64,000 nucleotides of DNA from positions 23,812 through 87,811 of the forward strand of contig CAAEFC010000040.1 of the NCBI GenBank assembly GCA_900755065.1. The letters run 5' to 3'. Every line of letters starts with the position of its first letter. Position 1 is the first letter of the stretch. This document shows positions 18,216-32,566 of the stretch, one piece after another. Under the pieces are notes generated by a model that was not told the origin of the DNA, did no database searches, and saw only the letters and a program-made list of their open reading frames with translations. The position numbers and the translations under genes were made by a program. The DNA comes from Bacilli bacterium (GTDB lineage: Bacteria; Bacillota_I; Bacilli_A; RFN20; CAG-449).

Positions 18216-18399
18216 ATCCTTACTCCTGTCTCTTAATTATAAATCGAATGAAATAAAAAAGTCTCAGAGAAATGATATTATTTTTAATGAAAAAGGGCCG
18301 CCAAGCAGCCCGCCTATGGGTTCAAAAAATTTTTATTTGAACTCGTAATGTTGTACAAGGTATGTACAACTTTATTTTATTTCTGAATCGGTAATTTTG

Positions 18400-18428
18400 T
18401 TGCTTAATTCTGTTGTATCCCCTATAAT
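18400..18428 (+). promoter_or_regulatory. Sigma-A-type promoter of the BREX-like operon
   Basis: TTGCTT (18400-18405), 17-nt spacer, TATAAT (18423-18428). AAGGAG RBS 8 nt before the ATG at 18450. Confidence 0.6.
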
Positions 18429-18449
18429 GATTTTAGAAGGAGTCATACT

Positions 18450-19916
18450 ATGGGCATAATTGGGCATAATAAAGTATTATGCGGTTTTGATATCGTACGA
18501 GCAAGAAAACGCAATAAAGCTCAAGAATCAATCGACTGCCCTAACGAGCTTAAGGCATTGCTACTCAAAGAATTTTCGTATGGGATACGTATCGATTCCG
18601 CAATCGATATTATAAAACTCAAAAATTCTGCCGAGAGGTTCAAGGTAACTTTGCCTGAAAATGAGGAATTGTTAAAAGCGCAAATTTTGGCTGGTGGCAT
18701 ATCGTTCGAAGGCAAAATATACTTTTATTCTGACAAAGTTTATTACGGGCTAATACAAAAAATAAAAGATGTTTTTGCGGAAGGTTTTTCCGTAGTTTAT
18801 TACGAGGAATTATTCAGTAAGAACTTTGATTGGTTTGACGAAAATCATATATCGTCATGGGAATTGCTTCGGGAATTTCTTGATGGAAAAGGCGGCGATT
18901 TGTTCATCAGTAAAAATTTTTTGCGTAAAGGGACAGAGCGAATCAATGAAGCCGACGCTGTGGAAAAGGAATTAGAGAGCGTTTGGGGCGATAAACCGAT
19001 TCATACATACGACGAAATGTACGAACTCTTGCCGTATATCCCGAGCGAAAAGATAAAGCTTTATCTTTCGTATTGTCAAAAATTCGTATGGTCAACATAC
19101 GAAACATTTGCGTGGATCGATAAGGTGATTATTTCTGAAGAGGAGAAGAAAGCTATTATCGATTATGCTGAAAGCGAGTGTAAACTGAATGGACATGCGT
19201 CTATTGCAAATGTACCGCTCGGTAATATCGAGGAAGAGAACTATCAAATTTCTATTACGGCTATCTATGATGCCGTGTACCGCATTGTACTAAGTGACAG
19301 ATTTTCTATAAACGGCAAGATTCTTACAAAAAACGATGCGGCAATAGATGCGCTTACACTTGCAAAATCTTATTGCGCCGATAAAGAGGAATGTACATTT
19401 AAGAGCCTTAACGATTATGTTATTTCCATAAATGGAGCGGAAAACAGACAAATAACTTTCCGCGCCGCATACGAGCAAATGATAAGAATCGACAAGCAGA
19501 ATTTTGTGGCTGATTACAAAGTGTATTTTGAAGTCGATACTATTGATGAGCTTTTTAAGCAAATGATAAAAGGCGATTTTGCATCTATAAAGAGCATTGC
19601 CACATTTATTATGTTCCCCGATTGTGGATATGCATGGACATATTATTTGTTGGAGAGTTTTTGTTATCGGTTTAGTAAGAAGTATCGTTTGGAAGTGATA
19701 GGTTTCAATGATAAGAATGCAGGCATTATTGCAAAAAAAGAAGTGAACTTATCATACGTTGATATGCTTGCCGTTACTGCGTTACGTTCGGGATTGGAAT
19801 TAAGGACAGATATTATCGGCGAATATTTATACAATAACGGTTATATTGCAAGAAAAAGGGAAACTATCCTCAATAATACCTTAGAAAGAGCAAAACAAAT
19901 GAAGGGGGGCAGATAA
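18450..19916 (+). CDS. Hypothetical protein, first gene of the BREX-like operon
   Basis: 488 aa with no motif I can recognise. Its stop is directly abutted by the brxP start (TAAATG). Confidence 0.7.
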   Translation: MGIIGHNKVLCGFDIVRARKRNKAQESIDCPNELKALLLKEFSYGIRIDSAIDIIKLKNSAERFKVTLPENEELLKAQILAGGISFEGKIYFYSDKVYYGLIQKIKDVFAEGFSVVYYEELFSKNFDWFDENHISSWELLREFLDGKGGDLFISKNFLRKGTERINEADAVEKELESVWGDKPIHTYDEMYELLPYIPSEKIKLYLSYCQKFVWSTYETFAWIDKVIISEEEKKAIIDYAESECKLNGHASIANVPLGNIEEENYQISITAIYDAVYRIVLSDRFSINGKILTKNDAAIDALTLAKSYCADKEECTFKSLNDYVISINGAENRQITFRAAYEQMIRIDKQNFVADYKVYFEVDTIDELFKQMIKGDFASIKSIATFIMFPDCGYAWTYYLLESFCYRFSKKYRLEVIGFNDKNAGIIAKKEVNLSYVDMLAVTALRSGLELRTDIIGEYLYNNGYIARKRETILNNTLERAKQMKGGR

Positions 19917-22238
19917 ATGTATTCGTATACTTTTGACGAAGAAACGGGTGGCATTTTGCTCAATTCCTCGCCTACGGGTTTTTCCAAGGAACCGCGCCCG
20001 GTGTACGCAAGTGAAATGGACTTACTTGGATTTTCCGTGTTTTGGGAATATGAACATCAAAACGATACACCTTATATGTGGGTGGAATCCAACGCATATT
20101 GGTATAAGGGACAAATAATTGCACGGATCAAGGGTGGAGATTTATATCATGCGCCGATTTTGACGCCCGTAACCGACGATAATGGCAAAGTAGTATTTAG
20201 TAGGGATTCGGGCGCACTGCAACCTATGAATATCCCACTCATGTGCAAGAAAAACAAAGAACTTCTTACTACATTGGAAAAGACAACTGTGCAAAAAATC
20301 GTGCGTGTGTACGAAAAATACAAGGATAAGCTCGATATTTTTCATGTGGCATTTTCGGGTGGCAAAGATAGTTCAGTATTGCTTGATTTGGTAAAAAAAG
20401 CATTACCAAAAGATAGTTTTGTCGTCATTTTTGGCGATACTGGAATGGAGTTCCCAGATACTTACAAAGCGGTGGATTACGCCGAATCGCAGTGCGAAAA
20501 GGAGGATCCACCCATAGCATTTTACAGAGCGCGTTCTCACTTTGATCCGGAAGAATCGTGGAAATTATTCGGCCCGCCTGCAAGAGTATTGCGGTGGTGT
20601 TGCAGTGTGCATAAAAGTACGCCACAGACTCTTAAAATGAGGGAGATTACAGGCAAAAATAATTATACAGGGCTGGACTTTGTTGGAGTGCGTCGAGAAG
20701 AAAGCTTGGCGAGAAGTACTTATGAATATGAGGACTTCGGAAAAAAGCAGAAGGGGCAATACAGCCACAATCCTATATTAGAGTGGACTTCGGCAGAAGT
20801 TTGGATGTATATTTTTGCAAACAAAATATATATCAACGAAGCTTATAAAAAAGGCAATTCCCGTGCTGGATGTTTGTTTTGTCCTATGGGTGGTGGACGG
20901 AATGATTATATTCAATATCAATCATATCCATATGAAGTAGGTAAATTTATTAGCTTAATAAAAACCATGAATGCGCGAAATAAGGGAGATAATGTTGCCT
21001 TATGCTCCTATGTGTCAAATGGCGGATGGAATGCTCGAAAAAACGGAAGAGATCTAACTATTAGTGAAGAGCATTATCGCGAAGAGATTAAAGATGATAA
21101 ATTGATAATCTCTGTTTCTAATCCACATACAGATTGGCAAGAATGGATAAAAACAGTAGGCCCACTGCCTTTTGAATATCAGATTGTTAATCTCAATAAT
21201 GGATATAAAGTCATTTGCGATGTTGCAATAATAAAGGATTTTCCAAAAGAAGTTAAACGATTTAAGCAGGTATTTAAAAAGTCCGCTCATTGCCTTTCAT
21301 GCAGAGTATGCGAAACTAATTGCGGGAATGGATGCATATCTTTTAATGAAAAATTATCAATAAATAATTGTATTCACTGCGGGCGTTGCCATGAAATTGA
21401 TGATGGCTGTCTTGCATATCATTCTTTAAAATTGTCCGGAGGTGGAACTATGAAAACAGGCAGTATTAATTCTTTTGCAAACCATGCGCCGAAAAACGAT
21501 TGGATACAGGTTTTTTTTGATTTGGGCGATGAGTTTTGGGATGAAAATCCTTTAGGATTAGGGCCGAACCAATTACCAATGTTTAAGCGTTTTTTAAGAG
21601 AGTGCGGAATTATTGATTCTAAGAATAAAACCTCCGAATTATTCATTATTCTAAAAAAATTAGGTTGGCGAGATAATACTACTTGGGGAATAATGACCGT
21701 AAATTTGTCGTATAATCCACAATTTCGTTGGTATATACAAAATATGGACATCGACATATTTTATGAACGATATAGAATAAGCGATATGCTTGTATCGTAC
21801 GGCGTTAGCAAAGATGATGCAACATCAATTATTAATGCATTTAAAAGATTTACGGACCTTCCATTGGGAACCGAACTTAATTGGGGTTATACTGAAGAGA
21901 AAAGAAGACAAATTGATACATTGTGTAGAACTAAGTGTATAATCTCCGACAATCGAGTTGTCCTATATGCGCTATATAAATTCGTAGAAAAGTGCAATTT
22001 GGAAGATAGGGAATTCCACTTATCGTATCTTTTAGATGAGAAAGTAGAACGCGATGGAGTAAGCCCGGCGAGAATGTTCGGTATTTATGACGAAGAAGAG
22101 TGGAAATCCATACTATTGGGGCTGGCTTCTCGTTATCCCGAATTTATCAATGCAACATTTACTAATGACTTAAAAACCATTTCACTCAAAGATAAATCGT
22201 CTGTGGACGTGTTGGAACTATTTAGGGAGGAACTTTAA
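19917..22238 (+). CDS. brxP: BREX type 4 BrxP-like protein: PAPS reductase/PP-loop ATP pyrophosphatase domain plus ferredoxin-like Cys cluster
   Basis: PP-loop FHVAFSGGKDSSVLLDL. RWCCSVHK motif as in the PAPS reductase/DndC family. CLFCPMGGG. Double CxxCxxCxxxC-type cluster CLSCRVCETNCGNGC...CIHCGRCHEIDDGC. 773 aa. Confidence 0.8.
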   Translation: MYSYTFDEETGGILLNSSPTGFSKEPRPVYASEMDLLGFSVFWEYEHQNDTPYMWVESNAYWYKGQIIARIKGGDLYHAPILTPVTDDNGKVVFSRDSGALQPMNIPLMCKKNKELLTTLEKTTVQKIVRVYEKYKDKLDIFHVAFSGGKDSSVLLDLVKKALPKDSFVVIFGDTGMEFPDTYKAVDYAESQCEKEDPPIAFYRARSHFDPEESWKLFGPPARVLRWCCSVHKSTPQTLKMREITGKNNYTGLDFVGVRREESLARSTYEYEDFGKKQKGQYSHNPILEWTSAEVWMYIFANKIYINEAYKKGNSRAGCLFCPMGGGRNDYIQYQSYPYEVGKFISLIKTMNARNKGDNVALCSYVSNGGWNARKNGRDLTISEEHYREEIKDDKLIISVSNPHTDWQEWIKTVGPLPFEYQIVNLNNGYKVICDVAIIKDFPKEVKRFKQVFKKSAHCLSCRVCETNCGNGCISFNEKLSINNCIHCGRCHEIDDGCLAYHSLKLSGGGTMKTGSINSFANHAPKNDWIQVFFDLGDEFWDENPLGLGPNQLPMFKRFLRECGIIDSKNKTSELFIILKKLGWRDNTTWGIMTVNLSYNPQFRWYIQNMDIDIFYERYRISDMLVSYGVSKDDATSIINAFKRFTDLPLGTELNWGYTEEKRRQIDTLCRTKCIISDNRVVLYALYKFVEKCNLEDREFHLSYLLDEKVERDGVSPARMFGIYDEEEWKSILLGLASRYPEFINATFTNDLKTISLKDKSSVDVLELFREEL

Positions 22239-22240
22239 TC

Positions 22241-25200
22241 ATGAATGCTAGAAAATATTGCGAGTATTTCAATATCAACGAAACCTACTTTCCGTGTATC
22301 GATGAGTCGGCTATAAATGCCGGCGTGGATTGGCAGGCTACCTATCCGCACGAAACGTTTATCAAATTATTGAAAACCACCGAGAATATGTTAGGCGGCG
22401 CAACCAAACGTTCAGTTTGGATTCACGGAGCATACGGCACGGGTAAAAGTCAGTGCGCTTACGCACTCAAAAAAATATTGGAATCTCCAGAAGGTGAAGT
22501 GCGTTCGTATTGGGATAAGTTCGAGCCGTTAAAACGAGAGATGCCGCTTTTGGAAAAACTAATTGGGCATAAAGAAAAAGGCATCGTCGCGGCATATCGC
22601 TACGCCTCGGGAAGTATCAATTCACCGCAACAGTTATTTTTGGCGATACAAGAAAGCATCAAGCAATCTCTGGAAGAGCAAGGCGTGGAATATAAAGGAG
22701 AACGTACGCTGAAAGAGAGCGTCATTGCTTGGCTCTCTCAACCCGCACAAAATGCATTTGTAAACACGTTACTCAACAAACCTGAATGGGAATCTTTGTT
22801 TGCACAGTCCACTGCCGATGAAATTATCAATTCCTTGCGTAAAAATGGTGACGTATCGTCACTTATGGATAATGTTTTCCGTATGGCGGCAAAAGAGGGC
22901 ATTACCGCACTTTCGCTGGATGCGGAAAAATTGCGTGAGTGGATAAAAGACATTATTGACACTAACAGCACAAAGATTGTTTTGGTTTGGGATGAATTCA
23001 GCGACTTTTTCCGTTTGAACAAAAATTCGTTGGGCGAGTTTCAAAAAATTGTCTCTATTTGCGAAGAAGCACCATTCTATCTTATTGTTGTAACTCACCC
23101 CATTACTTCTATTAGCAGTAACGATGATTCTTGGAAAATCGTTCAACAGCGTTTCGACAGAGTGGAAATAGAATTGCCCGAAAATATTGCGTTTGAACTT
23201 ATAGGACATGCTTTCAGCGTAAAGGATTCTGCCAAAGATGAATGGAACACAATGACGAGCGGCTTAGATGCGACTATTCCCAATTCTACTACGGCAGTTA
23301 TGAAAGCGGCGAATATTAAGGATAGGTCGGTTATCAAACGCATACTGCCCATTCAACCGATTGCCGCGCTGGTACTCAAAAAAATTGCAAATGCTTTTCA
23401 GTCGAACCAAAGAAGCATGTTCGACTTTATCAAGACAAAACACGATACCGACGTCAAGGCTTTCCAGTGGTTTATTGGGGAGTATAGCCCAATGGACGAA
23501 CAGCCACTTTTGACGGTGGATATGCTTTGGGACTTCTTTTATGTAAAAGGTAGGGAATATCTTACGTCCGATATAAAATTGATATTGGATACTTTTTCAC
23601 AACAAACTTCGCTTACCGAGAAAGAAAAGAAAGTTCTCAAAACGGTTCTTATTATGCAGGCAATAGACCTGCGTCTGGGCGGTACGCTCCCCATTATGAA
23701 ACCTACTGATCAAAATCTCGACTATGCGTTTGAGGGAATAGCGGAATATGAAACTTCTGCGAAACATATAGCAAAAGGGTTAGAAAATAAAGGGATTCTC
23801 ATAAGCACGCCGATATGTGACGGAAAGAGAGCATTTGGCGCGGCTGTTTTAGCAGGTGATAATACCAAAATAGAAGCGTCTAAAAAGGAGATTCGGAAAA
23901 AGAGCACGACAAGCAATCTAGTATCAGAAGGGGATTTGCTTCCTACGGCGATTTCTCTTACACCGGCATTAAAGCTTCGTTATGCAAAAGATGATAGCGG
24001 GGCACTACCTATTGTTACGGTTTCCGACTTTACCAAGATAATGGATACGCTCAAAAATAAGGACGCGGCATGGCGTTTCTATTCGGTTCTTGCGGTAGCA
24101 AAGGATGAGGACGAGGCGCAGAATTTCCGCACGTTAATCAAAAGAACGATTGCAAACGAGGAATATAAAAATATAATCGTTATCGACGCGCTTTCTTCGC
24201 CGCTCGGGTTGGAATTGTTCGAGCAGTACGTCGATTATTCCGCAATGGCAATGTATTACCAAGGTAATAACAATCAGCAAGCCAAAGAAAATTCCAACAA
24301 GGCAAAGAGCATTTTGAATAGAACGTGGAAGGACAAAATCCACGATGGGCAATTCTATGTGTATACAAACGCCAATCAAGATGGCGAAAGAGCAATCGGT
24401 GCAAACAACGTTCATGTTATTTTGCAGACAATAGTGCTCAAAAAATTTGGCCACATTTTCGATTTTACGAAAGGTCTGACCGAAACGCAATTAAAACTTA
24501 CCACACCGAAGAAGGTTTCTCGTTATGGTATGGGTGGATTGGATATCAACGGTTTGATCAGAGGTTGCGAAAAAAGCGTTCTCGGTTTGGTGTGGGGGAG
24601 AGAGAAGTATTGGGAAGTTTCCGAACTGCAAACTGCGCATATTGTAGTTATCAAACAAGCGGTTGACAAGCTGATTGAAGATGCATTTGCCGAGCGCGGG
24701 CAAATTTCCATTGGTGAAGTTTACGATTATTTACAAGACGAATTCGGATTTTCGCCTTGTAATTTGTCGGCATTTGTGACGGGGTTTTTATTAAAAGAAT
24801 ACAATTCCGATCCGTATCGTTGTATCGATTCTGAAGGCTATCCCGATACAATGACCCCCGATAAGTTGGCCGAGATGATAGGTAACTATATCGGGAAATC
24901 ACCAAAGCCTACGTATATCGTTAAGATGACTCCTTCGGAAAAGGTATTCTACGAAGCGACGGCAAAAGCATGGACGATACCTGCAACCTCATGCTCTTCT
25001 CCGAGTCAAGTGGCAACGCAACTTGAAAGCAAAATGCAGTCTTTCGGGTATCCTACGTGGAGTTTGGAGTATGTTGATGACATTGGTATTTACGATATCG
25101 TAAAAAAATACATAGCTTTAGTGCAAAGCGACGGCAAAGGTACGCACAATATAGCAATTGAAATCGGCAACATTTTTATGAACAGGCCTACGCGTATCGA

Positions 25201-26380
25201 CGGATTAAAAATGTTGTTTACCGCAGATAAGTACAAAGAGGGTATGACGGTATTCCTTAAGCAATATAGAGAAGGGAAGCTTATACAGCTTGCCGAAGAA
25301 ATCGGTGCAAAAGATATCGTTTTGTCGGATGTCCGTAAACTTTTCAGCGTGAAGCATTCGGCTATGTGGATTGAGGATACGGGAAAGACCGAAATCGATA
25401 AACTTATCGTAGAGTATGACGTTATCAAGCAAACGAATGGCATTTTGAACGTGGTTTGCAACACAAAAGAAAAGGCATTTAACGCTTGGCGCGAAGTTTT
25501 GAAATTCGTAGGTTTCTCTTGCGACGCATTAAAATCAAAAAGACCGAATTTAGATAAATTGCTTTCGTATCTTCTAAAAATTATGAATAGAGAAGATATG
25601 TTGCCTGAGATGATGAAAGAGTTTCTTTTTGAACTCAATGCGCGCAGAAGCGAGATTTGCGAAATTCTCAATAACAAGCTTGCCGTGTTTGAAGAGCTAT
25701 ATGGCGTATATTTAGAGGATTTTTCCATTACAGAGAAGGAAGAAATCCAGAATTCCATCAATAAGGAAATTTTTACCGATACGGCAACTACTAGCAATCA
25801 AACCGTAAAACAAGTGGCGGAGACATACCGCAAGAATCAAATCAAAACGCAACTCTTCAATCAGTGGAAAGAGTTGACGAGAACAAAAAATCCGAGAGAA
25901 TGGTCGAGTAGATACGGTACGCCGATTTTGTGTTTGGTGGATGCCGCATTATATGCTGAAGCAAAACTTGCATTTACAACATTAAACAGTACTTATCAAT
26001 CCGATTCTGATATCCATAAGGCATTGGAATTTTTGACGAAGTCGAAGGCGTTTTTCGATATGATACAAGATGCGTCTAAGCGCGACGAAGCTTTTATGCG
26101 GGTGGTTGACGGCTCTTATACCGTACTTCTTTCTAATCCTAATGTTGTAAGGCAGGCGTTGGAAAGCCTTCCCGTAGATGTGTATGACTGGTATGACAGT
26201 CCTGTTGTGAAGCAAAAAATTCAGCAAATGGCTGATGCGGAATATTATGCTGGCGGTAGCGATAAGGCGGTAGAACTTATAAGAAAAATGAGTGACTCCG
26301 AACTGAAAAAACATCTTATAGAACTTGTGCAAAAAGATACAGAACTTGGGATGAAGATAATTTCGAATGAGGATAAGTAA
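22241..26380 (+). CDS. brxC: BREX BrxC/PglY-like large P-loop ATPase
   Basis: 1379 aa. Walker A IHGAYGTGKSQ near the N-terminus, Walker B IVLVWDEFSDF. Size and position (after brxP, before pglZ) fit the BrxC/DUF499 family. Confidence 0.8.
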   Translation: MNARKYCEYFNINETYFPCIDESAINAGVDWQATYPHETFIKLLKTTENMLGGATKRSVWIHGAYGTGKSQCAYALKKILESPEGEVRSYWDKFEPLKREMPLLEKLIGHKEKGIVAAYRYASGSINSPQQLFLAIQESIKQSLEEQGVEYKGERTLKESVIAWLSQPAQNAFVNTLLNKPEWESLFAQSTADEIINSLRKNGDVSSLMDNVFRMAAKEGITALSLDAEKLREWIKDIIDTNSTKIVLVWDEFSDFFRLNKNSLGEFQKIVSICEEAPFYLIVVTHPITSISSNDDSWKIVQQRFDRVEIELPENIAFELIGHAFSVKDSAKDEWNTMTSGLDATIPNSTTAVMKAANIKDRSVIKRILPIQPIAALVLKKIANAFQSNQRSMFDFIKTKHDTDVKAFQWFIGEYSPMDEQPLLTVDMLWDFFYVKGREYLTSDIKLILDTFSQQTSLTEKEKKVLKTVLIMQAIDLRLGGTLPIMKPTDQNLDYAFEGIAEYETSAKHIAKGLENKGILISTPICDGKRAFGAAVLAGDNTKIEASKKEIRKKSTTSNLVSEGDLLPTAISLTPALKLRYAKDDSGALPIVTVSDFTKIMDTLKNKDAAWRFYSVLAVAKDEDEAQNFRTLIKRTIANEEYKNIIVIDALSSPLGLELFEQYVDYSAMAMYYQGNNNQQAKENSNKAKSILNRTWKDKIHDGQFYVYTNANQDGERAIGANNVHVILQTIVLKKFGHIFDFTKGLTETQLKLTTPKKVSRYGMGGLDINGLIRGCEKSVLGLVWGREKYWEVSELQTAHIVVIKQAVDKLIEDAFAERGQISIGEVYDYLQDEFGFSPCNLSAFVTGFLLKEYNSDPYRCIDSEGYPDTMTPDKLAEMIGNYIGKSPKPTYIVKMTPSEKVFYEATAKAWTIPATSCSSPSQVATQLESKMQSFGYPTWSLEYVDDIGIYDIVKKYIALVQSDGKGTHNIAIEIGNIFMNRPTRIDGLKMLFTADKYKEGMTVFLKQYREGKLIQLAEEIGAKDIVLSDVRKLFSVKHSAMWIEDTGKTEIDKLIVEYDVIKQTNGILNVVCNTKEKAFNAWREVLKFVGFSCDALKSKRPNLDKLLSYLLKIMNREDMLPEMMKEFLFELNARRSEICEILNNKLAVFEELYGVYLEDFSITEKEEIQNSINKEIFTDTATTSNQTVKQVAETYRKNQIKTQLFNQWKELTRTKNPREWSSRYGTPILCLVDAALYAEAKLAFTTLNSTYQSDSDIHKALEFLTKSKAFFDMIQDASKRDEAFMRVVDGSYTVLLSNPNVVRQALESLPVDVYDWYDSPVVKQKIQQMADAEYYAGGSDKAVELIRKMSDSELKKHLIELVQKDTELGMKIISNEDK

Positions 26381-28637
26381 CATGCTCGACGTAAGTGTAA
26401 GAAATTATTTATCGAATGCAAAAGGTGCGCCATTCTTTTTTGTTGTCGGAGATGGCGGATATATCGCTATTTTAGATGAACTGAAACGAAATGGTGTAAG
26501 CGTTATTCGTATAAGCGATTTTTGCCATAAACCCGATAAGTTTCCCAATCTCGACGATATGGTGGACAATTTCCGCATGGGCGATGTGGATTACAAAACG
26601 AATAGATTTGTAGTAGTGGGATTGGGTGAGTATCTTGCTTTGCGCGGAGAAGCGGAAGCCTTGAAAGTATTGCGCGAATTAAAAAGCACTACGCTGGGGA
26701 CGGCAAGGGTTATACTGCTTTTGCGTTGTGTCGGCGTTCAGGTTGAGGAAATTGTAAGAGAAGATATCCGCGCAAAGTCACGTGTTTACATAAGCAATTC
26801 AATTGATAATAATATAACTGTTGTAAACATAGGAATCGAACAAAGCGAAGGACTTGTAAAAGAAGTCGGGGTGCAGTCGCTATTGTATGCTATGGAAAAC
26901 GGCGAAACAGGTAAGTTGTTTGTTAAAACCAACCTTATATTGGATAATTCCATGTTACCTGTAAATAAAATAGACGACGCCTATTTCGCCATTAAAACTT
27001 TGGTACAAGGATTTTCTTTGCCGAAGTCTTTGGGCGATGATGAGCAATGGAATAGGCTGATGGGCGATTTGAAAAAATATAGCTACTCGTTCACTAATTT
27101 TTTTGCAGATAAAGATTTTCATTTGGATTCGGATGCGGACTTTATTGAAAAAGCGTTTGGGCTTACTTATAGTAAATGGATTTTCTTCATATATTTGAAG
27201 CTCAATTATACTAAATTAAGTAATCCGTATCTGCGCTTTGTTATTGAAAGAGTATCTGATTTCAAAGAACTGAAAACAGAAACGCTGAATGCGATAATCT
27301 CCGTTGAACATACGGACAAAGATTTTTATTCTCTTTATGCAGGACGGAAAAAGCTATTAAAAGATATCACCGAGTCCGATATCGCTATCTTTATTCGGCA
27401 AAACGAAATATATCCAGATGAAAGCATATATAAATTAACGGACAATACGTCCACGGAACGAAAAGCGATCATTCGTTGGGTATCACAGCATGGGCTTATT
27501 AAAGAGTTAGAGCAAATATATCCCGCATTATTTTTGTATTTGCAAAAGTATACATTTTCATGTGGCAAGAATGCTGATAAGTTTACCGATTATTTCGAAC
27601 GTTATAAACAACAAAAAATTTCCAATAGCCTTGATTATGGATTTGAAGAATGTGCAAAAAAGAGTTCAAGCCTATATGCGGGATTGCAAACACGTGCCAA
27701 TGCTCTTATGAATATAGGAGATAAAAAATCGACTTTTTTGATTTGGGTTGACGCTCTCGGTGTAGAATATTTAGCTTATATACAAGCTCTTGCCAAACAA
27801 AAAGGTCTTTCTATAAACATCGAAATTGCGAGAAGCGATTTACCGACGATAACAAGTATAAATAGAGGGTTCTACGACGAGTGGGGAGAAAATAAAGATA
27901 AGGAACAACATCTTGACGATATCAAACATCATGATTGCGGTGGATTCGATTATCGCAAAGATAAATTACCTGTTTATCTTGCAAGCGAATTGGACGTTAT
28001 AGAAAATGTTTTGAATTATGCCGCGACAGAACTTGCCTTTCGCAAGTATAAGCGAGTTGTTATTGCAAGCGACCACGGAGCATCCAGGCTTGCTGTTTTA
28101 GGTCAGCATGGCGAAAAATACGAAACAGATACGAAAGGCGAACATTCGGGACGTTGTTGCAAATATTTCGACGATTATGATATATCCAATTCAGTTGCAG
28201 AAAACGGATATATCGTTTTAACGGATTATGGAAGATTCAAAGGAAGTCGCGAAGCCAACGTAGAAGTGCATGGCGGATGTACTTTGGAAGAAACAGTAGT
28301 TCCCATTATCACACTTTCGTTGAAGAATCAGACAGATGTTCAAATTATTATCATGAAACCCGAGGAACTTGTTGTGGATAGAAAGAACGGCGTTCAAATT
28401 TCCGTTTATATTTCTAATGTGGAATATTCCAAGGCGGTTCACATGGAAATCAAAAAGAAAGTTTATGATGGCGAACAAACAGACAATACCCATTACACGT
28501 TTGCCTTAAATGATATTAAGCGTTCGGGAGAGTATGAGGCGAGCATATTCGATGGCTCAAATTTAATCGGGCGTGTAAAATTGCATATAAAAGGTGCAGT
28601 CGGTTCAACAAAATCCGATTTTGATGAGCTTTTCTAA
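26367..28637 (+). CDS. pglZ: BREX PglZ-domain protein (alkaline phosphatase superfamily)
   Basis: LIWVDALGVEYLAY...LPTITSINR and VVIASDHGASRL motifs of the PglZ fold. Overlaps brxC by 14 nt; an alternative ATG at 26382 has a GAGGA RBS. Confidence 0.85.
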   Translation: MRISNMLDVSVRNYLSNAKGAPFFFVVGDGGYIAILDELKRNGVSVIRISDFCHKPDKFPNLDDMVDNFRMGDVDYKTNRFVVVGLGEYLALRGEAEALKVLRELKSTTLGTARVILLLRCVGVQVEEIVREDIRAKSRVYISNSIDNNITVVNIGIEQSEGLVKEVGVQSLLYAMENGETGKLFVKTNLILDNSMLPVNKIDDAYFAIKTLVQGFSLPKSLGDDEQWNRLMGDLKKYSYSFTNFFADKDFHLDSDADFIEKAFGLTYSKWIFFIYLKLNYTKLSNPYLRFVIERVSDFKELKTETLNAIISVEHTDKDFYSLYAGRKKLLKDITESDIAIFIRQNEIYPDESIYKLTDNTSTERKAIIRWVSQHGLIKELEQIYPALFLYLQKYTFSCGKNADKFTDYFERYKQQKISNSLDYGFEECAKKSSSLYAGLQTRANALMNIGDKKSTFLIWVDALGVEYLAYIQALAKQKGLSINIEIARSDLPTITSINRGFYDEWGENKDKEQHLDDIKHHDCGGFDYRKDKLPVYLASELDVIENVLNYAATELAFRKYKRVVIASDHGASRLAVLGQHGEKYETDTKGEHSGRCCKYFDDYDISNSVAENGYIVLTDYGRFKGSREANVEVHGGCTLEETVVPIITLSLKNQTDVQIIIMKPEELVVDRKNGVQISVYISNVEYSKAVHMEIKKKVYDGEQTDNTHYTFALNDIKRSGEYEASIFDGSNLIGRVKLHIKGAVGSTKSDFDELF

Positions 28638-28649
28638 GGAGATGAGAGT

Positions 28650-30140
28650 ATGGATTATTTCGATAAATTAAGAGACTGTTTTGATGAAATGGTCGTATAC
28701 AAGGACCTAAAAAAGACAAATTTCTTTTCGGCTTTAAGTTTGCCGGCATTTATGCGCGATTGGTTGCTCAGAAAGTTCGAAGATGAAGAAGGAAATTTTG
28801 ATAAAGACGAATTGGCGCGTTTTGTAAAGAAATTCATTCCACGAAAAGAAGATTGGAATGCCATTAAAAACCGTGTTATCGTTGAGGGGCAAAAGACCAA
28901 ATTTTTAGCCAAAGTCTCCGTTAATATAGACATTCGCACTGGGGAAGTTTCGTTTGCGTTGCCTGAGTTTGGATTGGGTTTCAAGGAAACCATTATCGAA
29001 AGCGATGTATGGGATGAGTGCAAAGAGGACCTTGTAAAAGGTAGAGATGTATGGGGAATGATAGAGCTTGGCTATCGTGCGCCCGATGCATTTGACATTG
29101 AATTCGAATACGAAAAGAGTAAATCAAAAGCTCGAGCTTCAAAAGATGGAAAAATTAAATTGCTTTCTTTTAGAAATTTCTGCCCATATGAAATTGATAT
29201 TGAACAATATAAAGAGGCTCGTAAGGAATTTACTACGGAAGAGTGGATGAATGTTATCTTGGGAGCGGTGGATTACAATGCAGATGGCTACAAGACGGAA
29301 GAAGAAAAACTTACCATGTTGACTCGTCTGCTGCCGTTTGTTGAAAAGCGTCTTAATTTAATAGAACTTGCACCTAAGGGTACGGGTAAATCCTATCTAT
29401 TTGGCAATGTAAGTAGGTATGGTTGGCTTTCCAGCGGCGGAATTATGAGTCGTGCAAAAATGTTTTACGATCAAAGTAAGCGACGCGAAGGTTTGCTTTC
29501 GGGTAGTGATTTTGTTACATTAGATGAAGTGCAAACAATATCATTTACAGATACCGATGAAATGCGAGCCGCATTAAAGGGCTATTTGGAACAGGGAACT
29601 TTTACTGTAGGCGATTATAAAGGTGTGGCGGAAGCCGGCGTTGTATTGTGTGGTAACATCAGAAAAGAAATCATGGACGCGGACGGGTATAGCAATATGT
29701 TTGAGGAGCTGCCTGTTGTGTTTCATGAGTCTGCTTTGATTGAGCGTTTTCACGGTTTTATAAAAGGCTGGAATATACCGAGAATGAACGATGATTTGAA
29801 AGTGGCGGGTTGGGCATTGAATTCGGAGTATTTCTGTTCGATTATTCATGAGCTTAGGAGCGATTTGACATATCGTACAGTGGTGGACGATTTGATCGTA
29901 GTCCCAGATTCTGCCGACACTAGAGATACGGAAGCGGTAAAGAGAATTGCTACGGCATATTTGAAATTATTGTTTCCGCATGTGCAAAATTCAAAAGATA
30001 TATCCGCATATGATTTCAAGAGATATTGTTTATCGAGAGCTATAAAAATGCGCGATACGATTCGGTATCAGTTGGGCCTGCTTGATAAAGAATATGCGGG
30101 GAAAGATTTGCCAGCATTTATGGTTTCTAAGGATGATTAA
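28650..30140 (+). CDS. brxL: BREX BrxL-like AAA+ ATPase (Lon-related family, short ~500-aa form)
   Basis: BrxL-type N-terminus (VVYKDLKKT...LPAFMRDWLLRKF...), Walker A ELAPKGTGKSYLF, Walker B SDFVTLDEVQ. 496 aa. Confidence 0.75.
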   Translation: MDYFDKLRDCFDEMVVYKDLKKTNFFSALSLPAFMRDWLLRKFEDEEGNFDKDELARFVKKFIPRKEDWNAIKNRVIVEGQKTKFLAKVSVNIDIRTGEVSFALPEFGLGFKETIIESDVWDECKEDLVKGRDVWGMIELGYRAPDAFDIEFEYEKSKSKARASKDGKIKLLSFRNFCPYEIDIEQYKEARKEFTTEEWMNVILGAVDYNADGYKTEEEKLTMLTRLLPFVEKRLNLIELAPKGTGKSYLFGNVSRYGWLSSGGIMSRAKMFYDQSKRREGLLSGSDFVTLDEVQTISFTDTDEMRAALKGYLEQGTFTVGDYKGVAEAGVVLCGNIRKEIMDADGYSNMFEELPVVFHESALIERFHGFIKGWNIPRMNDDLKVAGWALNSEYFCSIIHELRSDLTYRTVVDDLIVVPDSADTRDTEAVKRIATAYLKLLFPHVQNSKDISAYDFKRYCLSRAIKMRDTIRYQLGLLDKEYAGKDLPAFMVSKDD

Positions 30141-30142
30141 GT

Positions 30143-30346
30143 ATGAACACTGAAAAGAAATTTTGCTATGTTTGCAGGAAAGAATTGTCAAAAAACGAAA
30201 TAGGATTAACAAAAAAACTGATTGACAAAAAAGCGAATAAGTTTTATTGTTTGACATGTCTTGCGGAATATTTAGAAGTAACAGAAGAGGAGTTGCTTGC
30301 AAAAATCGAAGAGTTCAAAGAAGAGGGCTGTACGCTGTTTAAGTAA
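30143..30346 (+). CDS. Small zinc-ribbon protein (67 aa)
   Basis: Two CxxC pairs (CYVCRKE ... CLTCLAE). Starts 2 nt after the brxL stop and ends 2 nt before the desulfurase start. Confidence 0.6.
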   Translation: MNTEKKFCYVCRKELSKNEIGLTKKLIDKKANKFYCLTCLAEYLEVTEEELLAKIEEFKEEGCTLFK

Positions 30347-30348
30347 TT

Positions 30349-31491
30349 ATGAAGCAAATGATTTACGCCGATAATGCCGCTACAACAAGGCTTGATAGCG
30401 ACGCATATAAAGCAATGTCAAAGATATTGCAAAATGAATATGGCAACCCTTCTCAGCCATATTCCTTTTCTCGTACCGCAAAAAGGTTGATTGCACAAGC
30501 AAGGGAGACGATTGCAGAGTGTATCAATGCATCGCCTGATGAAATATTTTTCACTTCGGGTGGAACAGAAGGCGATAATTGGGGATTGGAAGGAGTGGCA
30601 TTTTCTAATCCCTATAAGAAGATTATCACTTCACAAATCGAACATCATGCTATTTTGAGAACTTGCGAGTTTTTGGAAAAACAGAATTTTCCTATCGCTT
30701 ATCTTCCGGTTACAAAAGACGGGACAGTTTTGCCCGATACATTAAGTGCGCAGATATCTGATACAACTTCGCTAGTTTCCATAATGCTTGCCAATAATGA
30801 AGTCGGAACCATTCAGCCGATAAAAGAGCTTGCCAAAATTGCGCATTCTCACGGAGCATTGTTTCATACCGATGCGGTACAAGCAGTAGGACACATTCCC
30901 GTTGATGTTAAAGGACTAGGTGTGGATATGCTAACTGCTTCTGCGCATAAGTTTAATGGACCGAAAGGAATTGGTTTTCTTTATATAAAGCATGGAATTC
31001 ATATTCTACCATATATGCATGGCGGAGCGCAAGAGAAGGGGCTTCGCGCTGGTACGGAAAATGTTGCGTCCATTGTCGGAATGAGTGTTGCATTAAAGAA
31101 TAATATAAAGAATCAAATTAATAATGACAATTTATATCGTGAAGAGCAATTCTTTTTATCTCGATTGGAACAATGCGGAATTATTCTCGGTAGGGATTTT
31201 TTATGGAATGGGAGTAATGAATTTGGTAAACATTTGCCGGGACTGATTAGTTTGTCTTTCAGAGGGAAAGACGGCGAATCGATTATGCATAGAATGGACT
31301 TAAAAGGTATTGCAATTTCTACCGGGGCGGCATGTGATTCCATTAATACACAGGTTTCGCATGTTATTAAGGCAATACATGTTCCAAATGAGTTTGCGTT
31401 AGGAACAATTCGTATATCTTTTGGAAACAATACAACGCATGACGAAGTCGAGGCAATAGCATATGCATTGAGCGATATTGTGTCAAAATGA
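30349..31491 (+). CDS. Cysteine desulfurase (NifS/IscS class, PLP-dependent)
   Basis: HTDAVQAVGH, PLP-lysine motif SAHKFNGPKGIG and catalytic cysteine loop STGAACDS. 380 aa. AT-rich like the rest of the island. Confidence 0.88.
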   Translation: MKQMIYADNAATTRLDSDAYKAMSKILQNEYGNPSQPYSFSRTAKRLIAQARETIAECINASPDEIFFTSGGTEGDNWGLEGVAFSNPYKKIITSQIEHHAILRTCEFLEKQNFPIAYLPVTKDGTVLPDTLSAQISDTTSLVSIMLANNEVGTIQPIKELAKIAHSHGALFHTDAVQAVGHIPVDVKGLGVDMLTASAHKFNGPKGIGFLYIKHGIHILPYMHGGAQEKGLRAGTENVASIVGMSVALKNNIKNQINNDNLYREEQFFLSRLEQCGIILGRDFLWNGSNEFGKHLPGLISLSFRGKDGESIMHRMDLKGIAISTGAACDSINTQVSHVIKAIHVPNEFALGTIRISFGNNTTHDEVEAIAYALSDIVSK

Positions 31492-31492
31492 G

Positions 31493-32566
31493 ATGGTAAA
31501 TATGAACGAATTGGCAAAAACATCATATACGGAAGTTCTTCATATTATCAAAGCGGCGAGAGAAAGTGCATTTAGCAAAGTAAATGAAGAACTTATTTTG
31601 ATGTATCGGGATATCGGTAAATATATCAGCGAGAAGTCGAAAGACGCCAAGTACGGTGAAAAATATGTAGACGGGCTTGCGGATTTCTTTGCAAGGGAAT
31701 ACCCAGAATTAAAGGGCTTTACACGACGCGGACTGTATCGTATGCGATAGTTTTACAAACTTTATAAAGATGACGAAAAAGTGTCACCGCTGGTGACAAA
31801 ATTGAGTTGGTCGAATCATTTGAAGATTATGTCGGCTTGTAAATCGCAAGAGGAACGCTATTTCTATATGGCACTCTGCGTCAAAGAAAGATATAGCGCG
31901 CGTGAGCTTGCGCGGCAAATCGATAGCGGATATTACGAGCGAAATATACTATCGCAAAAGCCGACTACGCTTGCAATAGCGGAAGCTAAGGAAAAAGCTG
32001 GTAATATCTTTTTGACACCTACACGCTTGATTTTCTCGATTTGTCCGAAACGGTTTTGGAACAAGATCTGCAAAAATCGATTATCCGCAATTTGAAAAAC
32101 TTTGTGTTTGAAGTCTGCAAAGACTTTACGTTTATAGGCGAAAGAATATAGGCTGCAAGTCAGCAATCACGATTATTATGTGGACTTACTTATCTATCAC
32201 AGAGGACTGTCGTGCTTGGTTGCGTTTGAGTTGAAGATAGGCGAATTTAAGCCGGAATATGTCGGCAAAAGAGGACTTTATTTGAAAGCATTGGATAGGG
32301 AGATAAAAAAGGAAAACGAAAATCCGAGCGTTGGTATTATCCTTTACGCCAAGAAAGACGATGAAGTTGTCGAATTTGCTTTAAGCCGTAGTTTATCGCC
32401 AACAACGGTATCCGAATATAAATTGAAACTGATTGATAAGCAATTGTTACAAAACAAATTAAAAGAGTATGTCCTACTTGTAGACAGCCAAGACAACATA
32501 TATGGATTAATCTATAAACAATATCTGCCGAAAAGAAAAAACGAAAGCATAGAAAACATACAATAA
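31493..32566 (+). pseudogene. Decayed DUF1016/YhcG-type PDDEXK nuclease gene
   Basis: Family-typical N-terminus (...YGEKYVDGLADFFAREYPELKGFTRRGLYRMR) is interrupted by an in-frame TAG at 31748-31750, where the family has Gln (MRQFY). It continues FYKLY...LSWSNHLKIM. There are at least two frameshifts (about 32010 and about 32140) before the PDDEXK core VDLLIYHRGLSCLVAFELKIGEFKPEYVGK. Confidence 0.7.

What the first reader, a model, noticed from the sequence alone, without database searches (positions are those of the whole stretch)
18400..31491. Methyltransferase-less BREX type 4-like operon extended by three extra co-operonic genes
Seen in sequence: seven same-strand ORFs have junctions of 0-12 nt or overlaps (19916/19917 TAAATG, 22238/22241, 26380 vs 26367, 28637/28650, 30140/30143, 30346/30349). 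There is one sigma-A-like promoter upstream and no obvious internal terminator. Motifs identify the middle four genes as brxP (PP-loop SGGKDS), brxC/pglY (1379 aa, Walker A GAYGTGKSQ, Walker B LVWDEF), pglZ (WVDALG..., SDHGASR) and brxL (APKGTGKSY, LDEVQ). Established knowledge: the P-C-Z-L order is the BREX type 4 signature, defined by comparative genomics. As far as I know its mechanism and DNA modification have not been shown experimentally. No PglX-like or other DNA methyltransferase ORF occurs anywhere in the 15.2-34.4 kb island. Inference: the operon as found here has extra components (a 488-aa orphan, a zinc-ribbon protein and a cysteine desulfurase). It may therefore be a self-contained, sulfur-dependent variant of the system and a tractable model for type 4 BREX.
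Basis: partly seen in the sequence, partly recalled or inferred. Interest (0 to 1): 0.85.

Follow-up and report, generated by a model that had tools for sequence, protein, structure and literature searches.

The report
Standard phosphorothioate (type 4) BREX operon
This is an intact but ordinary type 4 BREX phage-defence operon that most likely marks the cell's own DNA with sulfur; two of its three "extra" genes are already published, and the third belongs to a large unnamed family found next to almost every related system.

Summary
The middle four are BrxP, BrxC, PglZ and BrxL of type 4 BREX by strong HMM hits.

- Yuan et al. (Nat Commun 2026; preprint 2024) showed type 4 BREX makes phosphorothioate DNA with BrxP, BrxC and a cysteine desulfurase.
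- An NAR 2026 survey reported the desulfurase in 56% of type 4 loci, often with a small zinc-finger/HTH protein.

In my survey of 80 related loci:
- The upstream gene was present in 69 of 70 loci.
- The 67-aa gene was present in 62 of 63.
- The desulfurase was present in 44 of 56.
- All three were present together, in window order, in 41 of 52.

So the seven-gene layout is the norm for this clade.

The "488-aa orphan" is the core-only form of a large family (2,891 clusters at 50% identity):
- It is a tandem winged-helix protein and the fastest-evolving component.
- Its closest relatives carry an extra 250–360-residue N-terminal extension.
- Two of five same-species contigs also carry a +1 frameshift in it.

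I found no description of this family in the papers I could search; it is the one modest lead.

The parts
18400..18449 (+). Putative promoter and ribosome-binding site of the operon: TATAAT at 18423-18428 and GAAGGAG at 18437-18443, 7 nt before the ATG
   Evidence: Read directly from the sequence. Consensus-level only: promoter-like sites are not enriched over shuffles. The upstream gene is on the opposite strand, so transcription must begin in the 18216-18449 spacer. This spacer is unique to this lineage.
18450..19916 (+). 'Gene 0': the core-only (488 aa) form of a conserved tandem winged-helix protein found directly upstream of brxP in type 4 BREX
   Evidence: It has no hit in Pfam, NCBIfam or PADLOC. 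It aligns only to residues 361-833 of the 833-aa homolog P0008 at 67% identity, and homology starts at about nt 18468-18495. Family members lie directly upstream of brxP in L001-L011 and L098, and upstream of a brxP remnant in L099, and in 69 of 70 survey loci. The AF2 model of P0008 has pLDDT 83.5, and Foldseek hits are tandem winged-helix arrays.
18985..18988 (+). G4 run inside gene 0 that is G5 in some same-species contigs, giving a +1 frameshift into 181-aa and 299-aa ORFs
   Evidence: L093 and L096 carry the extra G. L094, L095 and L097 match the window.
19917..22238 (+). brxP: PP-loop/PAPS-reductase-type sulfur-inserting enzyme with a Cys-rich ferredoxin-like segment and a C-terminal SspB/DUF4007-like region (the last per the literature)
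   Evidence: PADLOC BrxP 9e-243 over residues 1-770, and Pfam PAPS_reduct 1.5e-30. Motifs SGGKDS147, RWCCSVHK226, CLSCRVCETNC459 and CIHCGRC485 are present. Weak Fer4 hits cover the Cys-rich segment. The domain interpretation comes from PMC12914056 and PMC12839542.
22241..26380 (+). brxC/pglY: SspC-like P-loop ATPase, 1379 aa
   Evidence: PADLOC BrxC PDLC02485 at E=0 over residues 4-1377, with weaker SspC hits. Walker A GAYGTGKSQ63 and Walker B LVWDEF248 are present.
26367..28637 (+). pglZ, type 4 form (alternative start at 26382)
   Evidence: NCBIfam NF033445 'BREX-4 system phosphatase PglZ' scores 497.7 bits against a cut-off of 140. PADLOC PglZ scores 6e-196. Pfam finds DUF7864, DUF7863 and DUF7862.
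28650..30140 (+). brxL: short form with the N-terminal domain and AAA+ ATPase but no Lon protease domain
   Evidence: TIGR02688 scores 403.3 bits against a cut-off of 329.3. Pfam finds BrxL_N and BrxL_ATPase. PADLOC BrxL scores 8.6e-223.
30143..30346 (+). 67-aa zinc-ribbon plus HTH-like protein ('znr') with a fifth conserved Cys
   Evidence: The search found 1,092 homologs; the 120 listed are 72-99% identical to the query. It lies next to brxL in 62 of 63 survey loci. C8, C11, C36, C39 and C63 are at least 90% conserved. The AF2 model has pLDDT 78, and only weak HTH/wHTH fold matches were found. It matches the 'small zinc-finger protein' of PMC12839542.
30349..31491 (+). Cysteine desulfurase (NifS/IscS class, DndA/SspA-like), the dedicated sulfur donor
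   Evidence: Pfam Aminotran_5 2.8e-79. PADLOC DndA 8e-125 and SspA 1e-124. The PLP lysine in SAHKF198 and the catalytic Cys in GAAC326 are present. It lies within 1.2 kb after brxL in 44 of 56 survey loci.
31478..32566 (+). Adjacent YhcG/DUF1016 PD-(D/E)XK nuclease gene (PADLOC candidate system PDC-S02), broken into three ORF fragments; probably a decayed neighbouring defence gene rather than part of the operon
   Evidence: Pfam finds DUF1016_N in two fragments and YhcG_C in the third. PADLOC PDC-S02 scores down to 1.8e-39. The same fragments occur in L093-L097.

Best explanation
Identity: window 18.4-31.5 kb is a complete, typical type 4 BREX operon of the phosphorothioate (PT) kind. It shows the seven-gene layout usual for its clade: gene 0, brxP, brxC, pglZ, brxL, a small Zn-ribbon/HTH gene, and a cysteine desulfurase.

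Modification (inferred from published work on homologs):
1. The PLP-dependent desulfurase takes sulfur from L-cysteine as a persulfide on its catalytic Cys.
2. It passes the sulfur to BrxP, a PP-loop/PAPS-reductase-type enzyme with a Cys-rich Fe-S-like segment and an SspB-like DNA-binding tail.
3. BrxP, together with the SspC-like ATPase BrxC, installs PT at short sequence motifs on the host's own DNA.

Restriction: PglZ and BrxL are not needed for modification in the published system. They presumably form the arm that acts on unmodified incoming DNA.

Gene 0: it encodes a fast-evolving tandem winged-helix protein with no enzymatic fold. I infer that it is a DNA- or partner-binding recognition/adaptor subunit working with BrxC and PglZ. 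In this species it has lost the N-terminal extension that its closest relatives have, leaving the complete conserved core. Some strains have also frameshifted it, so it is probably not essential here.
For: Identity of the four core genes:
- PADLOC BrxP 9e-243, BrxC E=0, PglZ 6e-196 and BrxL 8.6e-223.
- NCBIfam BREX-4 PglZ and TIGR02688 BrxL both score above their curated cut-offs.
- Gene order and junctions are as described, and all catalytic motifs are intact.

Mechanism, from the literature:
- brxP, brxC and a cysteine desulfurase suffice for PT synthesis.
- brxZ, brxL and an unknown downstream gene are dispensable for PT synthesis (PMC12914056).
- The desulfurase and a Zn-finger/HTH protein are already linked to type 4 BREX (PMC12839542).

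Layout is the norm:
- Gene 0 is present in 69 of 70 loci, and ends within 60 nt of brxP in 66 of them.
- The small Zn-ribbon gene is present in 62 of 63.
- The desulfurase is present in 44 of 56.
- All three are present in 41 of 52.
- The loci span many bacterial phyla and two archaeal genera.

Gene 0:
- The core-only form is natural. P0068 (465 aa) sits in intact operons, and 28 of 63 survey loci have a core-only form.
- The model is confident and matches only tandem winged-helix arrays.
- It is the fastest-evolving component, with median 25.6% identity to the window.
- Its pairwise distances track BrxC best (Spearman 0.84), then PglZ (0.76).
- The family has 2,891 representative clusters, with the core always at the C-terminus.
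Against: - No PT chemistry, transcript or phage phenotype can be tested with these tools, so function rests on homology to systems in Bacteroides.
- Published evidence for anti-phage activity of type 4 BREX itself is thin.
- Gene 0's role is inference only. Foldseek E-values never reach 0.001, and the co-evolution signal is confounded by shared fast rates and saturation.
- The locus shows signs of erosion: loss of gene 0's N-terminal extension, a +1 frameshift in 2 of the 5 same-species contigs compared, no small HTH_26 gene upstream, and a broken neighbouring nuclease gene.
- The 80 survey loci are the closest of 353 relatives. The linkage figures therefore describe this BrxP clade (40-68% identity), not all type 4 BREX.
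Confidence: 0.85

Rival explanations
1. One reading: this is an unusual, self-contained, sulfur-dependent variant of type 4 BREX that has acquired three extra co-operonic genes.
For: PADLOC and the classical definition list only four genes, and gene 0 and the 67-aa protein hit no defence model. The seven genes are tightly packed on one strand.
Against: The three extras are present together in 41 of 52 related loci, in the same order and with 0-20 nt junctions. The desulfurase and the Zn-finger protein are already published as type 4 components. Sulfur dependence is a property of all type 4 BREX systems.
Confidence: 0.04
2. The locus is eroding in this species. The modification half may still work, but defence is impaired or lost, and gene 0 is a pseudogene remnant.
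For: The closest relatives of gene 0 (64-77% identity) all carry an extra 250-360-residue N-terminal extension, and no trace of it is left in the window. Two of the five same-species contigs compared add a +1 frameshift while BrxP stays 100% identical. The small HTH_26 gene seen in close relatives is absent. The adjacent YhcG/PDC-S02 nuclease gene is in three pieces.
Against: The deletion ends at the natural domain boundary, leaving a complete core like the natural short forms. The gene has a strong RBS and a TATAAT box. The other six ORFs are full length with intact motifs. The identical BrxP sequence is indexed in 54 blocks of the assembly collection, mostly on contigs longer than 50 kb, which suggests the locus is maintained.
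Confidence: 0.15
3. Gene 0 and the 67-aa protein are simply transcriptional regulators of the operon (BrxR-like in role), not parts of the machinery.
For: Both are built from HTH or winged-helix modules. PMC12839542 likens the small protein to HTH regulators. An unknown gene downstream of brxL is dispensable for PT synthesis in B. salyersiae, but I could not confirm that it is homologous to the 67-aa gene.
Against: Gene 0 is far larger (470-1,580 aa) and more modular than a typical repressor, and it evolves faster than any other component. Many close relatives already carry a separate small HTH_26 gene upstream of it. The 67-aa protein behaves differently from gene 0: the 120 listed homologs are 72-99% identical, it has a fifth conserved Cys, and it stays with the desulfurase in a locus lacking pglZ and brxL (L044).
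Confidence: 0.2
4. The cysteine desulfurase is a housekeeping NifS/IscS gene that merely lies next to the operon.
For: Its best NCBIfam hit is NifS (TIGR03402, 421 bits), and it is below the curated cut-off of every equivalog model, including DndA. Its pairwise distances are nearly uncoupled from the other components, with Spearman 0.10-0.32.
Against: It starts 2 nt after the 67-aa gene. A homolog sits in the same position in 44 of 56 loci across distant phyla. It lies inside the low-GC island. PMC12839542 reports the same linkage.
Confidence: 0.03

Closest known systems
Type 4 BREX (brxPCZL), as defined by comparative genomics and shown to make phosphorothioate DNA in Bacteroides salyersiae (PMC12914056)
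   Same: It has the same four hallmark genes in the same order, no PglX methyltransferase, and a BrxP with a PAPS-reductase domain. The source is also the human gut.
   Different: The B. salyersiae operon carries mcrA between brxP and brxC and relied on a host SufS in the reconstruction. The window has no mcrA and encodes its own desulfurase. BrxL here is the short form without a Lon domain.
Type 4 BREX with cysteine desulfurase as a 'sixth core component' plus a small zinc-finger/HTH protein (PMC12839542, NAR 2026)
   Same: The desulfurase and the small Zn-ribbon protein lie directly after brxL, exactly the pairing that paper describes.
   Different: The text and supplements I could search do not list the upstream winged-helix gene as a component. 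In my sample the small Zn-ribbon gene (62 of 63) is more constant than the desulfurase (44 of 56).
SspABCD phosphorothioation module
   Same: Its parts correspond to those here: SspA to the desulfurase, SspD to the BrxP PAPS-reductase part, SspC to BrxC, and SspB (DUF4007) to the BrxP C-terminus according to the literature. PADLOC SspD, SspC and SspA models give secondary hits.
   Different: There is no separate sspB and no SspE or SspFGH partner. PglZ and BrxL are present instead. The BREX-specific models score far higher than the Ssp models.
BrxA / DUF4007 multi-HTH DNA-binding components of BREX
   Same: Like these, gene 0 is built only from HTH or winged-helix modules and sits at the 5' end of the operon.
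   Different: No sequence or profile similarity was found: Pfam gives nothing even at E<=10, and hhalign against BrxP's C-terminal region gives probability below 1%. The SspB structure 6LB9 is not among the top 50 fold matches. Gene 0's core is much larger (~460 aa) and carries variable N-terminal extensions.

Membership tests
BREX type 4 | BrxP: a PAPS-reductase/PP-loop protein in place of the PglX methyltransferase | tested here: met
   PADLOC BrxP 9.1e-243 over residues 1-770, Pfam PF01507 1.5e-30, and the SGGKDS motif.
BREX type 4 | BrxC/PglY large P-loop ATPase | tested here: met
   PADLOC BrxC PDLC02485 at E=0 over residues 4-1377, with Walker A and B present. Pfam DUF499 did not hit.
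BREX type 4 | PglZ of the type 4 subfamily | tested here: met
   NCBIfam NF033445 scores 497.7 bits against a cut-off of 140. PADLOC PglZ scores 6e-196. Pfam PF08665 itself did not hit at E<=0.01.
BREX type 4 | BrxL | tested here: met
   TIGR02688 scores 403.3 bits against a cut-off of 329.3, and Pfam finds BrxL_N and BrxL_ATPase.
BREX type 4 | P-C-Z-L order, contiguous on one strand, with no PglX or other DNA methyltransferase in the locus | tested here: met
   ORF map and junctions. Island ORFs were scanned with Pfam and PADLOC. The only methyltransferase nearby is an RNA uracil-5 type outside the island.
BREX type 4 | Phosphorothioate modification of host DNA at defined motifs | not testable with these tools
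   This needs LC-MS/MS of PT dinucleotides or PT-specific sequencing. It is inferred from PMC12914056.
BREX type 4 | Protection against phage | not testable with these tools
   This needs phage challenge of the native or a heterologous host.
DndA (TIGR03235 equivalog) / IscS / NifS equivalogs | Score above the curated equivalog cut-off | tested here: not met
   DndA scores 309.1 against a cut-off of 480, NifS 421.3 against 530.75, and IscS 307.3 against 643.2. I therefore file it only as a class V (NifS/IscS-like) cysteine desulfurase associated with PT systems.
Cysteine desulfurase (class V aminotransferase fold) | Aminotran_5 domain, a PLP-binding Lys and a catalytic Cys | tested here: met
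   PF00266 scores 2.8e-79 over residues 5-369. SAHKF198 and GAAC326 are present.
SspABCD-SspE | A separate SspB (DUF4007) gene and an SspE or SspFGH restriction partner | tested here: not met
   There is no separate SspB-like ORF and no SspE/FGH hit in the island. Pfam DUF4007 does not hit BrxP's C-terminal region either, so the SspB-like fusion rests on the literature alone.
BrxA / DUF4007 (for gene 0) | Detectable sequence, profile or fold similarity to DUF4007/BrxA | tested here: not met
   Pfam gives nothing at E<=10. hhalign against BrxP's C-terminal region gives probability 0.5%. A PDB profile search finds nothing. 6LB9 is not in the top 50 Foldseek hits.
BrxR (WYL-domain regulator; for gene 0) | wHTH-WYL-WCX architecture | tested here: not met
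   There are no WYL or WCX hits in gene 0 or four homologs. A true WYL/WCX gene occurs separately in L008.

The most novel reading that the evidence does not exclude
The gene directly upstream of brxP encodes an unrecognised, near-universal seventh component of the main clade of type 4 BREX. It is a modular protein with a ~460-aa tandem winged-helix core and interchangeable N-terminal DNA-binding modules. It evolves faster than any other component and co-varies most closely with BrxC and PglZ. On this reading it would be the target-recognition or invader-sensing adaptor that sets where, or on what, the system acts. The window's core-only allele, frameshifted in some strains, would then be a natural knock-down series for testing this.
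Probability: 0.35. Interest if true: 0.6.

Novelty: new member of a known kind. Interest (0 to 1): 0.3.

Why it matters
The locus itself adds little: it is one more gut-bacterial type 4 BREX system, and its chemistry and its desulfurase and Zn-finger accessories are already published. Its practical value is as a compact, self-sufficient seven-gene cassette that brings its own sulfur donor, so it could be moved into a heterologous host.

The more useful outcome concerns the upstream gene. It belongs to a very large family (2,891 clusters at 50% identity) and is almost always attached to brxP. The accessible literature has no name or role for this family. What sets PT target motifs in type 4 BREX, and how foreign DNA is sensed, are open questions; Yuan et al. 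could not assign motif choice to BrxC. This family is therefore a concrete candidate to test.

Tried and rejected
- A surviving remnant of gene 0's missing N-terminus or of the HTH_26 gene upstream: tblastn and blastn found none. The 18216-18560 junction matches only same-species contigs.
- Gene 0 as a DUF4007/BrxA paralogue: rejected.
- A conserved Cys cluster in gene 0: four Cys are invariant among close homologs, but the window's Cys are each only 2-62% conserved across the 69 survey sequences. There is therefore no conserved metal or persulfide site.
- Enzymatic domains in the longest family members: only Sigma70_r4, Phage_int_SAM_1 and Sel1 were found.
- Foldseek of gene 0 against viral structures: nothing useful.
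- Foldseek of the 67-aa protein: only weak HTH/wHTH matches at E of about 1.
- An mcrA-like gene between brxP and brxC in L077: the apparent gap is a run of N.
- The 'unknown' gene of Yuan et al. as gene 0: it lies downstream of brxL (HMPREF1532_02796), so it is not gene 0.
- Source organism: cluster look-ups returned no names. The source is a human-gut metagenome lineage with Bacillota-like gene order, and this is not resolved further.
- RNA elements: Rfam found none in 15-35 kb, and there are no tRNAs in the window.


Full report
**Observation**

- The junctions are 0-12 nt, or a 14-nt overlap.
- Every quoted motif is present.
- The region lies in a low-GC island, about 0.35-0.43 from roughly 15 to 35 kb against about 0.45-0.52 in most of the flanks.
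- The upstream neighbour is on the opposite strand, so transcription has to start in the 18216-18449 spacer.
- That spacer has a TATAAT box at 18423-18428 and a GAAGGAG RBS 7 nt before the ATG.
- The promoter is only a consensus match. Promoter-like sites are no commoner here than in shuffles, and there is no strong + strand terminator before 33.3 kb.

**Core genes**

PADLOC gives the following:
- BrxP: 9e-243
- BrxC: E=0
- PglZ: 6e-196
- BrxL: 8.6e-223

NCBIfam places PglZ in the BREX-4 PglZ family (497.7 bits against a cut-off of 140). It places BrxL in TIGR02688 (403.3 bits against a cut-off of 329.3). Pfam finds PAPS_reduct in BrxP and BrxL_N plus BrxL_ATPase in BrxL. It does not hit PF08665 or DUF499.

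There is no DNA methyltransferase in the island. The only methyltransferase nearby (13879-15318) is an RNA uracil-5 type in the higher-GC flank. Membership of type 4 BREX is therefore met on every feature that sequence can test.

**What is already known**

- Yuan et al. (PMC12914056; preprint 2024) showed that type 4 BREX makes phosphorothioate DNA.
  - brxP, brxC and a cysteine desulfurase are the minimal set.
  - BrxP is effectively an SspD-SspB fusion, and BrxC is an SspC homolog.
  - brxZ, brxL and an unknown gene downstream of brxL are dispensable for modification.
- The NAR 2026 survey (PMC12839542) found a cysteine desulfurase in 255 of 457 type 4 taxa and called it a potential sixth core component. 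[quoted passage not shown]

**The 488-aa 'orphan'**

- It has no hit in Pfam, NCBIfam or PADLOC, but 344 homologs were found, mostly 730-845 aa long.
- The window protein aligns only to residues 361-833 of the 833-aa homolog P0008, at 67% identity.
- Homology starts at about nt 18468-18495, and nothing resembling the missing N-terminus is left in the window.
- Family members sit directly upstream of brxP in the contigs holding P0008, P0085, P0033, P0068 and P0519, and upstream of a brxP remnant in the contig holding P0455.
- Natural core-only forms exist in intact operons, for example P0068 at 465 aa.
- The window's homology begins at the same profile position as those forms (about position 357 of 826). 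That position falls in the low-confidence linker of the model.

The window therefore keeps the complete conserved core. What it has lost, relative to its closest relatives, is the variable N-terminal extension and the small HTH_26 gene.

**Survey**

A BrxP alignment found 353 relatives among GTDB species representatives, and the closest 80 were kept. Their BrxP identity to the window is 40-68%. They include Bacillota, Bacteroidota, Planctomycetota, Synergistota, Spirochaetota, Desulfobacterota, Verrucomicrobiota and two archaeal genera.

Six-frame ORFs were scored with a gene 0 profile and with the window proteins:

| Feature | Loci with feature / loci with enough flanking DNA |
|---|---|
| Gene 0 upstream of brxP | 69 / 70 |
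| Gene 0 ending within 60 nt of brxP | 66 / 70 |
| 67-aa gene next to brxL | 62 / 63 |
| Desulfurase within 1.2 kb after brxL | 44 / 56 |
| All three extras together | 41 / 52 |

- Gene 0 forms, in the 63 loci with at least 3 kb upstream: 28 core-only, 12 intermediate and 23 long.
- An HTH_26 gene precedes gene 0 in only 11 of 66 loci.

The seven-gene layout is therefore the norm for this clade, not an extension. These figures describe the clade nearest the query, not all type 4 systems.

**Nature of gene 0**

- The AF2 model of P0008 has mean pLDDT 83.5, with the core at about 90.
- Foldseek against the PDB returns only tandem winged-helix arrays: UFL1/DDRGK1, SelB WH1-4, ESCRT-II, Dcc1, Stn1 and Rpc5. 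The best E-value is 2.7e-3, and no enzyme fold appears.
- The N-terminal extension gives weak matches to the integrase SAM-like (core-binding) domain.
- There is no detectable link to DUF4007/BrxA.
- Across 38 complete loci, gene 0 is the most divergent component by median identity to the window:

| Component | Median identity to the window (%) |
|---|---|
| Gene 0 | 25.6 |
| PglZ | 30.4 |
| BrxC | 33.6 |
| BrxP | 46.8 |
| Desulfurase | 55.1 |
| 67-aa protein | 61.7 |
| BrxL | 63.7 |

- Its pairwise distances correlate best with BrxC (Spearman 0.84) and then PglZ (0.76). The desulfurase is nearly uncoupled from every other component, at 0.10-0.32. This is suggestive only, because fast rates and saturation inflate such correlations.
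- A full HMMER scan of 1.84 billion representatives finds 2,891 family clusters, 1,289 of them at E<=1e-30. The core is always at the C-terminus, and total length ranges from 470 to 1,580 aa.
- I found no mention of this gene in the text or held supplements of the two key papers, or in further literature searches. Figures could not be inspected.

**The 67-aa protein**

- The search found 1,092 homologs. The 120 listed are 72-99% identical to the query.
- C8, C11, C36 and C39 form a CxxC...CxxC zinc ribbon. A fifth Cys (C63) sits in a conserved EEFKxxGCxLF tail.
- The model has pLDDT 78: a ribbon followed by helices. It gives only weak HTH/wHTH fold matches.
- In L044, which lacks pglZ and brxL, the gene stays with the desulfurase directly after brxC. 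That hints it belongs to the modification half.

**State of the locus in this species**

- The identical BrxP sequence is indexed in 54 blocks of the assembly collection, and the contigs examined include human-gut metagenome assemblies with the same flanks.
- Two of the five contigs compared (L093 and L096) have G5 instead of G4 at 18985-18988. This splits gene 0 into 181-aa and 299-aa ORFs.
- Directly downstream, a YhcG/DUF1016 PD-(D/E)XK nuclease gene (PADLOC candidate PDC-S02) is broken into three fragments.
- The six other operon genes are intact.

**Verdict**

The core identification is correct, but the claim of a special extended variant with unknown chemistry is not supported. This is a typical member of a known system. 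The residual interest is the unnamed winged-helix family upstream of brxP.

Noticed in passing
window 18985-18988; L093 9068-9072; L096: A G4/G5 length polymorphism inside gene 0 frameshifts it in two of the five same-species contigs compared, while BrxP stays 100% identical. It could reflect relaxed selection or simple on/off variation.
   Followed up: partly
window 31478-32566: A YhcG/DUF1016 PD-(D/E)XK nuclease gene (PADLOC candidate single-gene system PDC-S02) lies directly after the desulfurase and is split into three ORF fragments. The same fragments occur in the same-species contigs L093-L097.
   Followed up: partly
window 30143-30346 (residue C63): Besides the four zinc-ribbon Cys, the 67-aa protein has a fifth Cys that is at least 90% conserved, in an EEFKxxGCxLF tail. 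Because it sits directly before the desulfurase, it could be a persulfide relay or partner-binding residue. This is untested.
   Followed up: partly
L044 (Selenomonadaceae MAG), about 8.5-17.9 kb: This locus has gene 0, brxP, brxC, the Zn-ribbon gene and the desulfurase, but no pglZ or brxL. It looks like a modification-only derivative, consistent with brxP, brxC and a desulfurase being sufficient for PT.
   Followed up: no
L099 655-12749: A 1,364-aa gene 0 homolog is followed by a 254-aa protein that equals only the C-terminal third of BrxP (56% identity to residues 516-769), then brxC, pglZ and brxL. The PAPS-reductase part is missing but gene 0 is kept.
   Followed up: partly
L002 14843-18816: In assembly GCA_947361425.1, brxC is cut short at 1,079 aa by a phage-integrase gene, and pglZ and brxL are gone. 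This is an example of insertional inactivation of the same system.
   Followed up: no
window 13879-15318: The only methyltransferase near the island is a tRNA/rRNA uracil-5 methyltransferase (PF05958, 2.9e-27) in the higher-GC flank. It should not be mistaken for a DNA-modification partner.
   Followed up: yes
38 complete survey loci: The desulfurase's pairwise distances are almost uncorrelated with those of the other six components (Spearman 0.10-0.32). This suggests it has been exchanged or recruited repeatedly rather than co-inherited with the operon.
   Followed up: no
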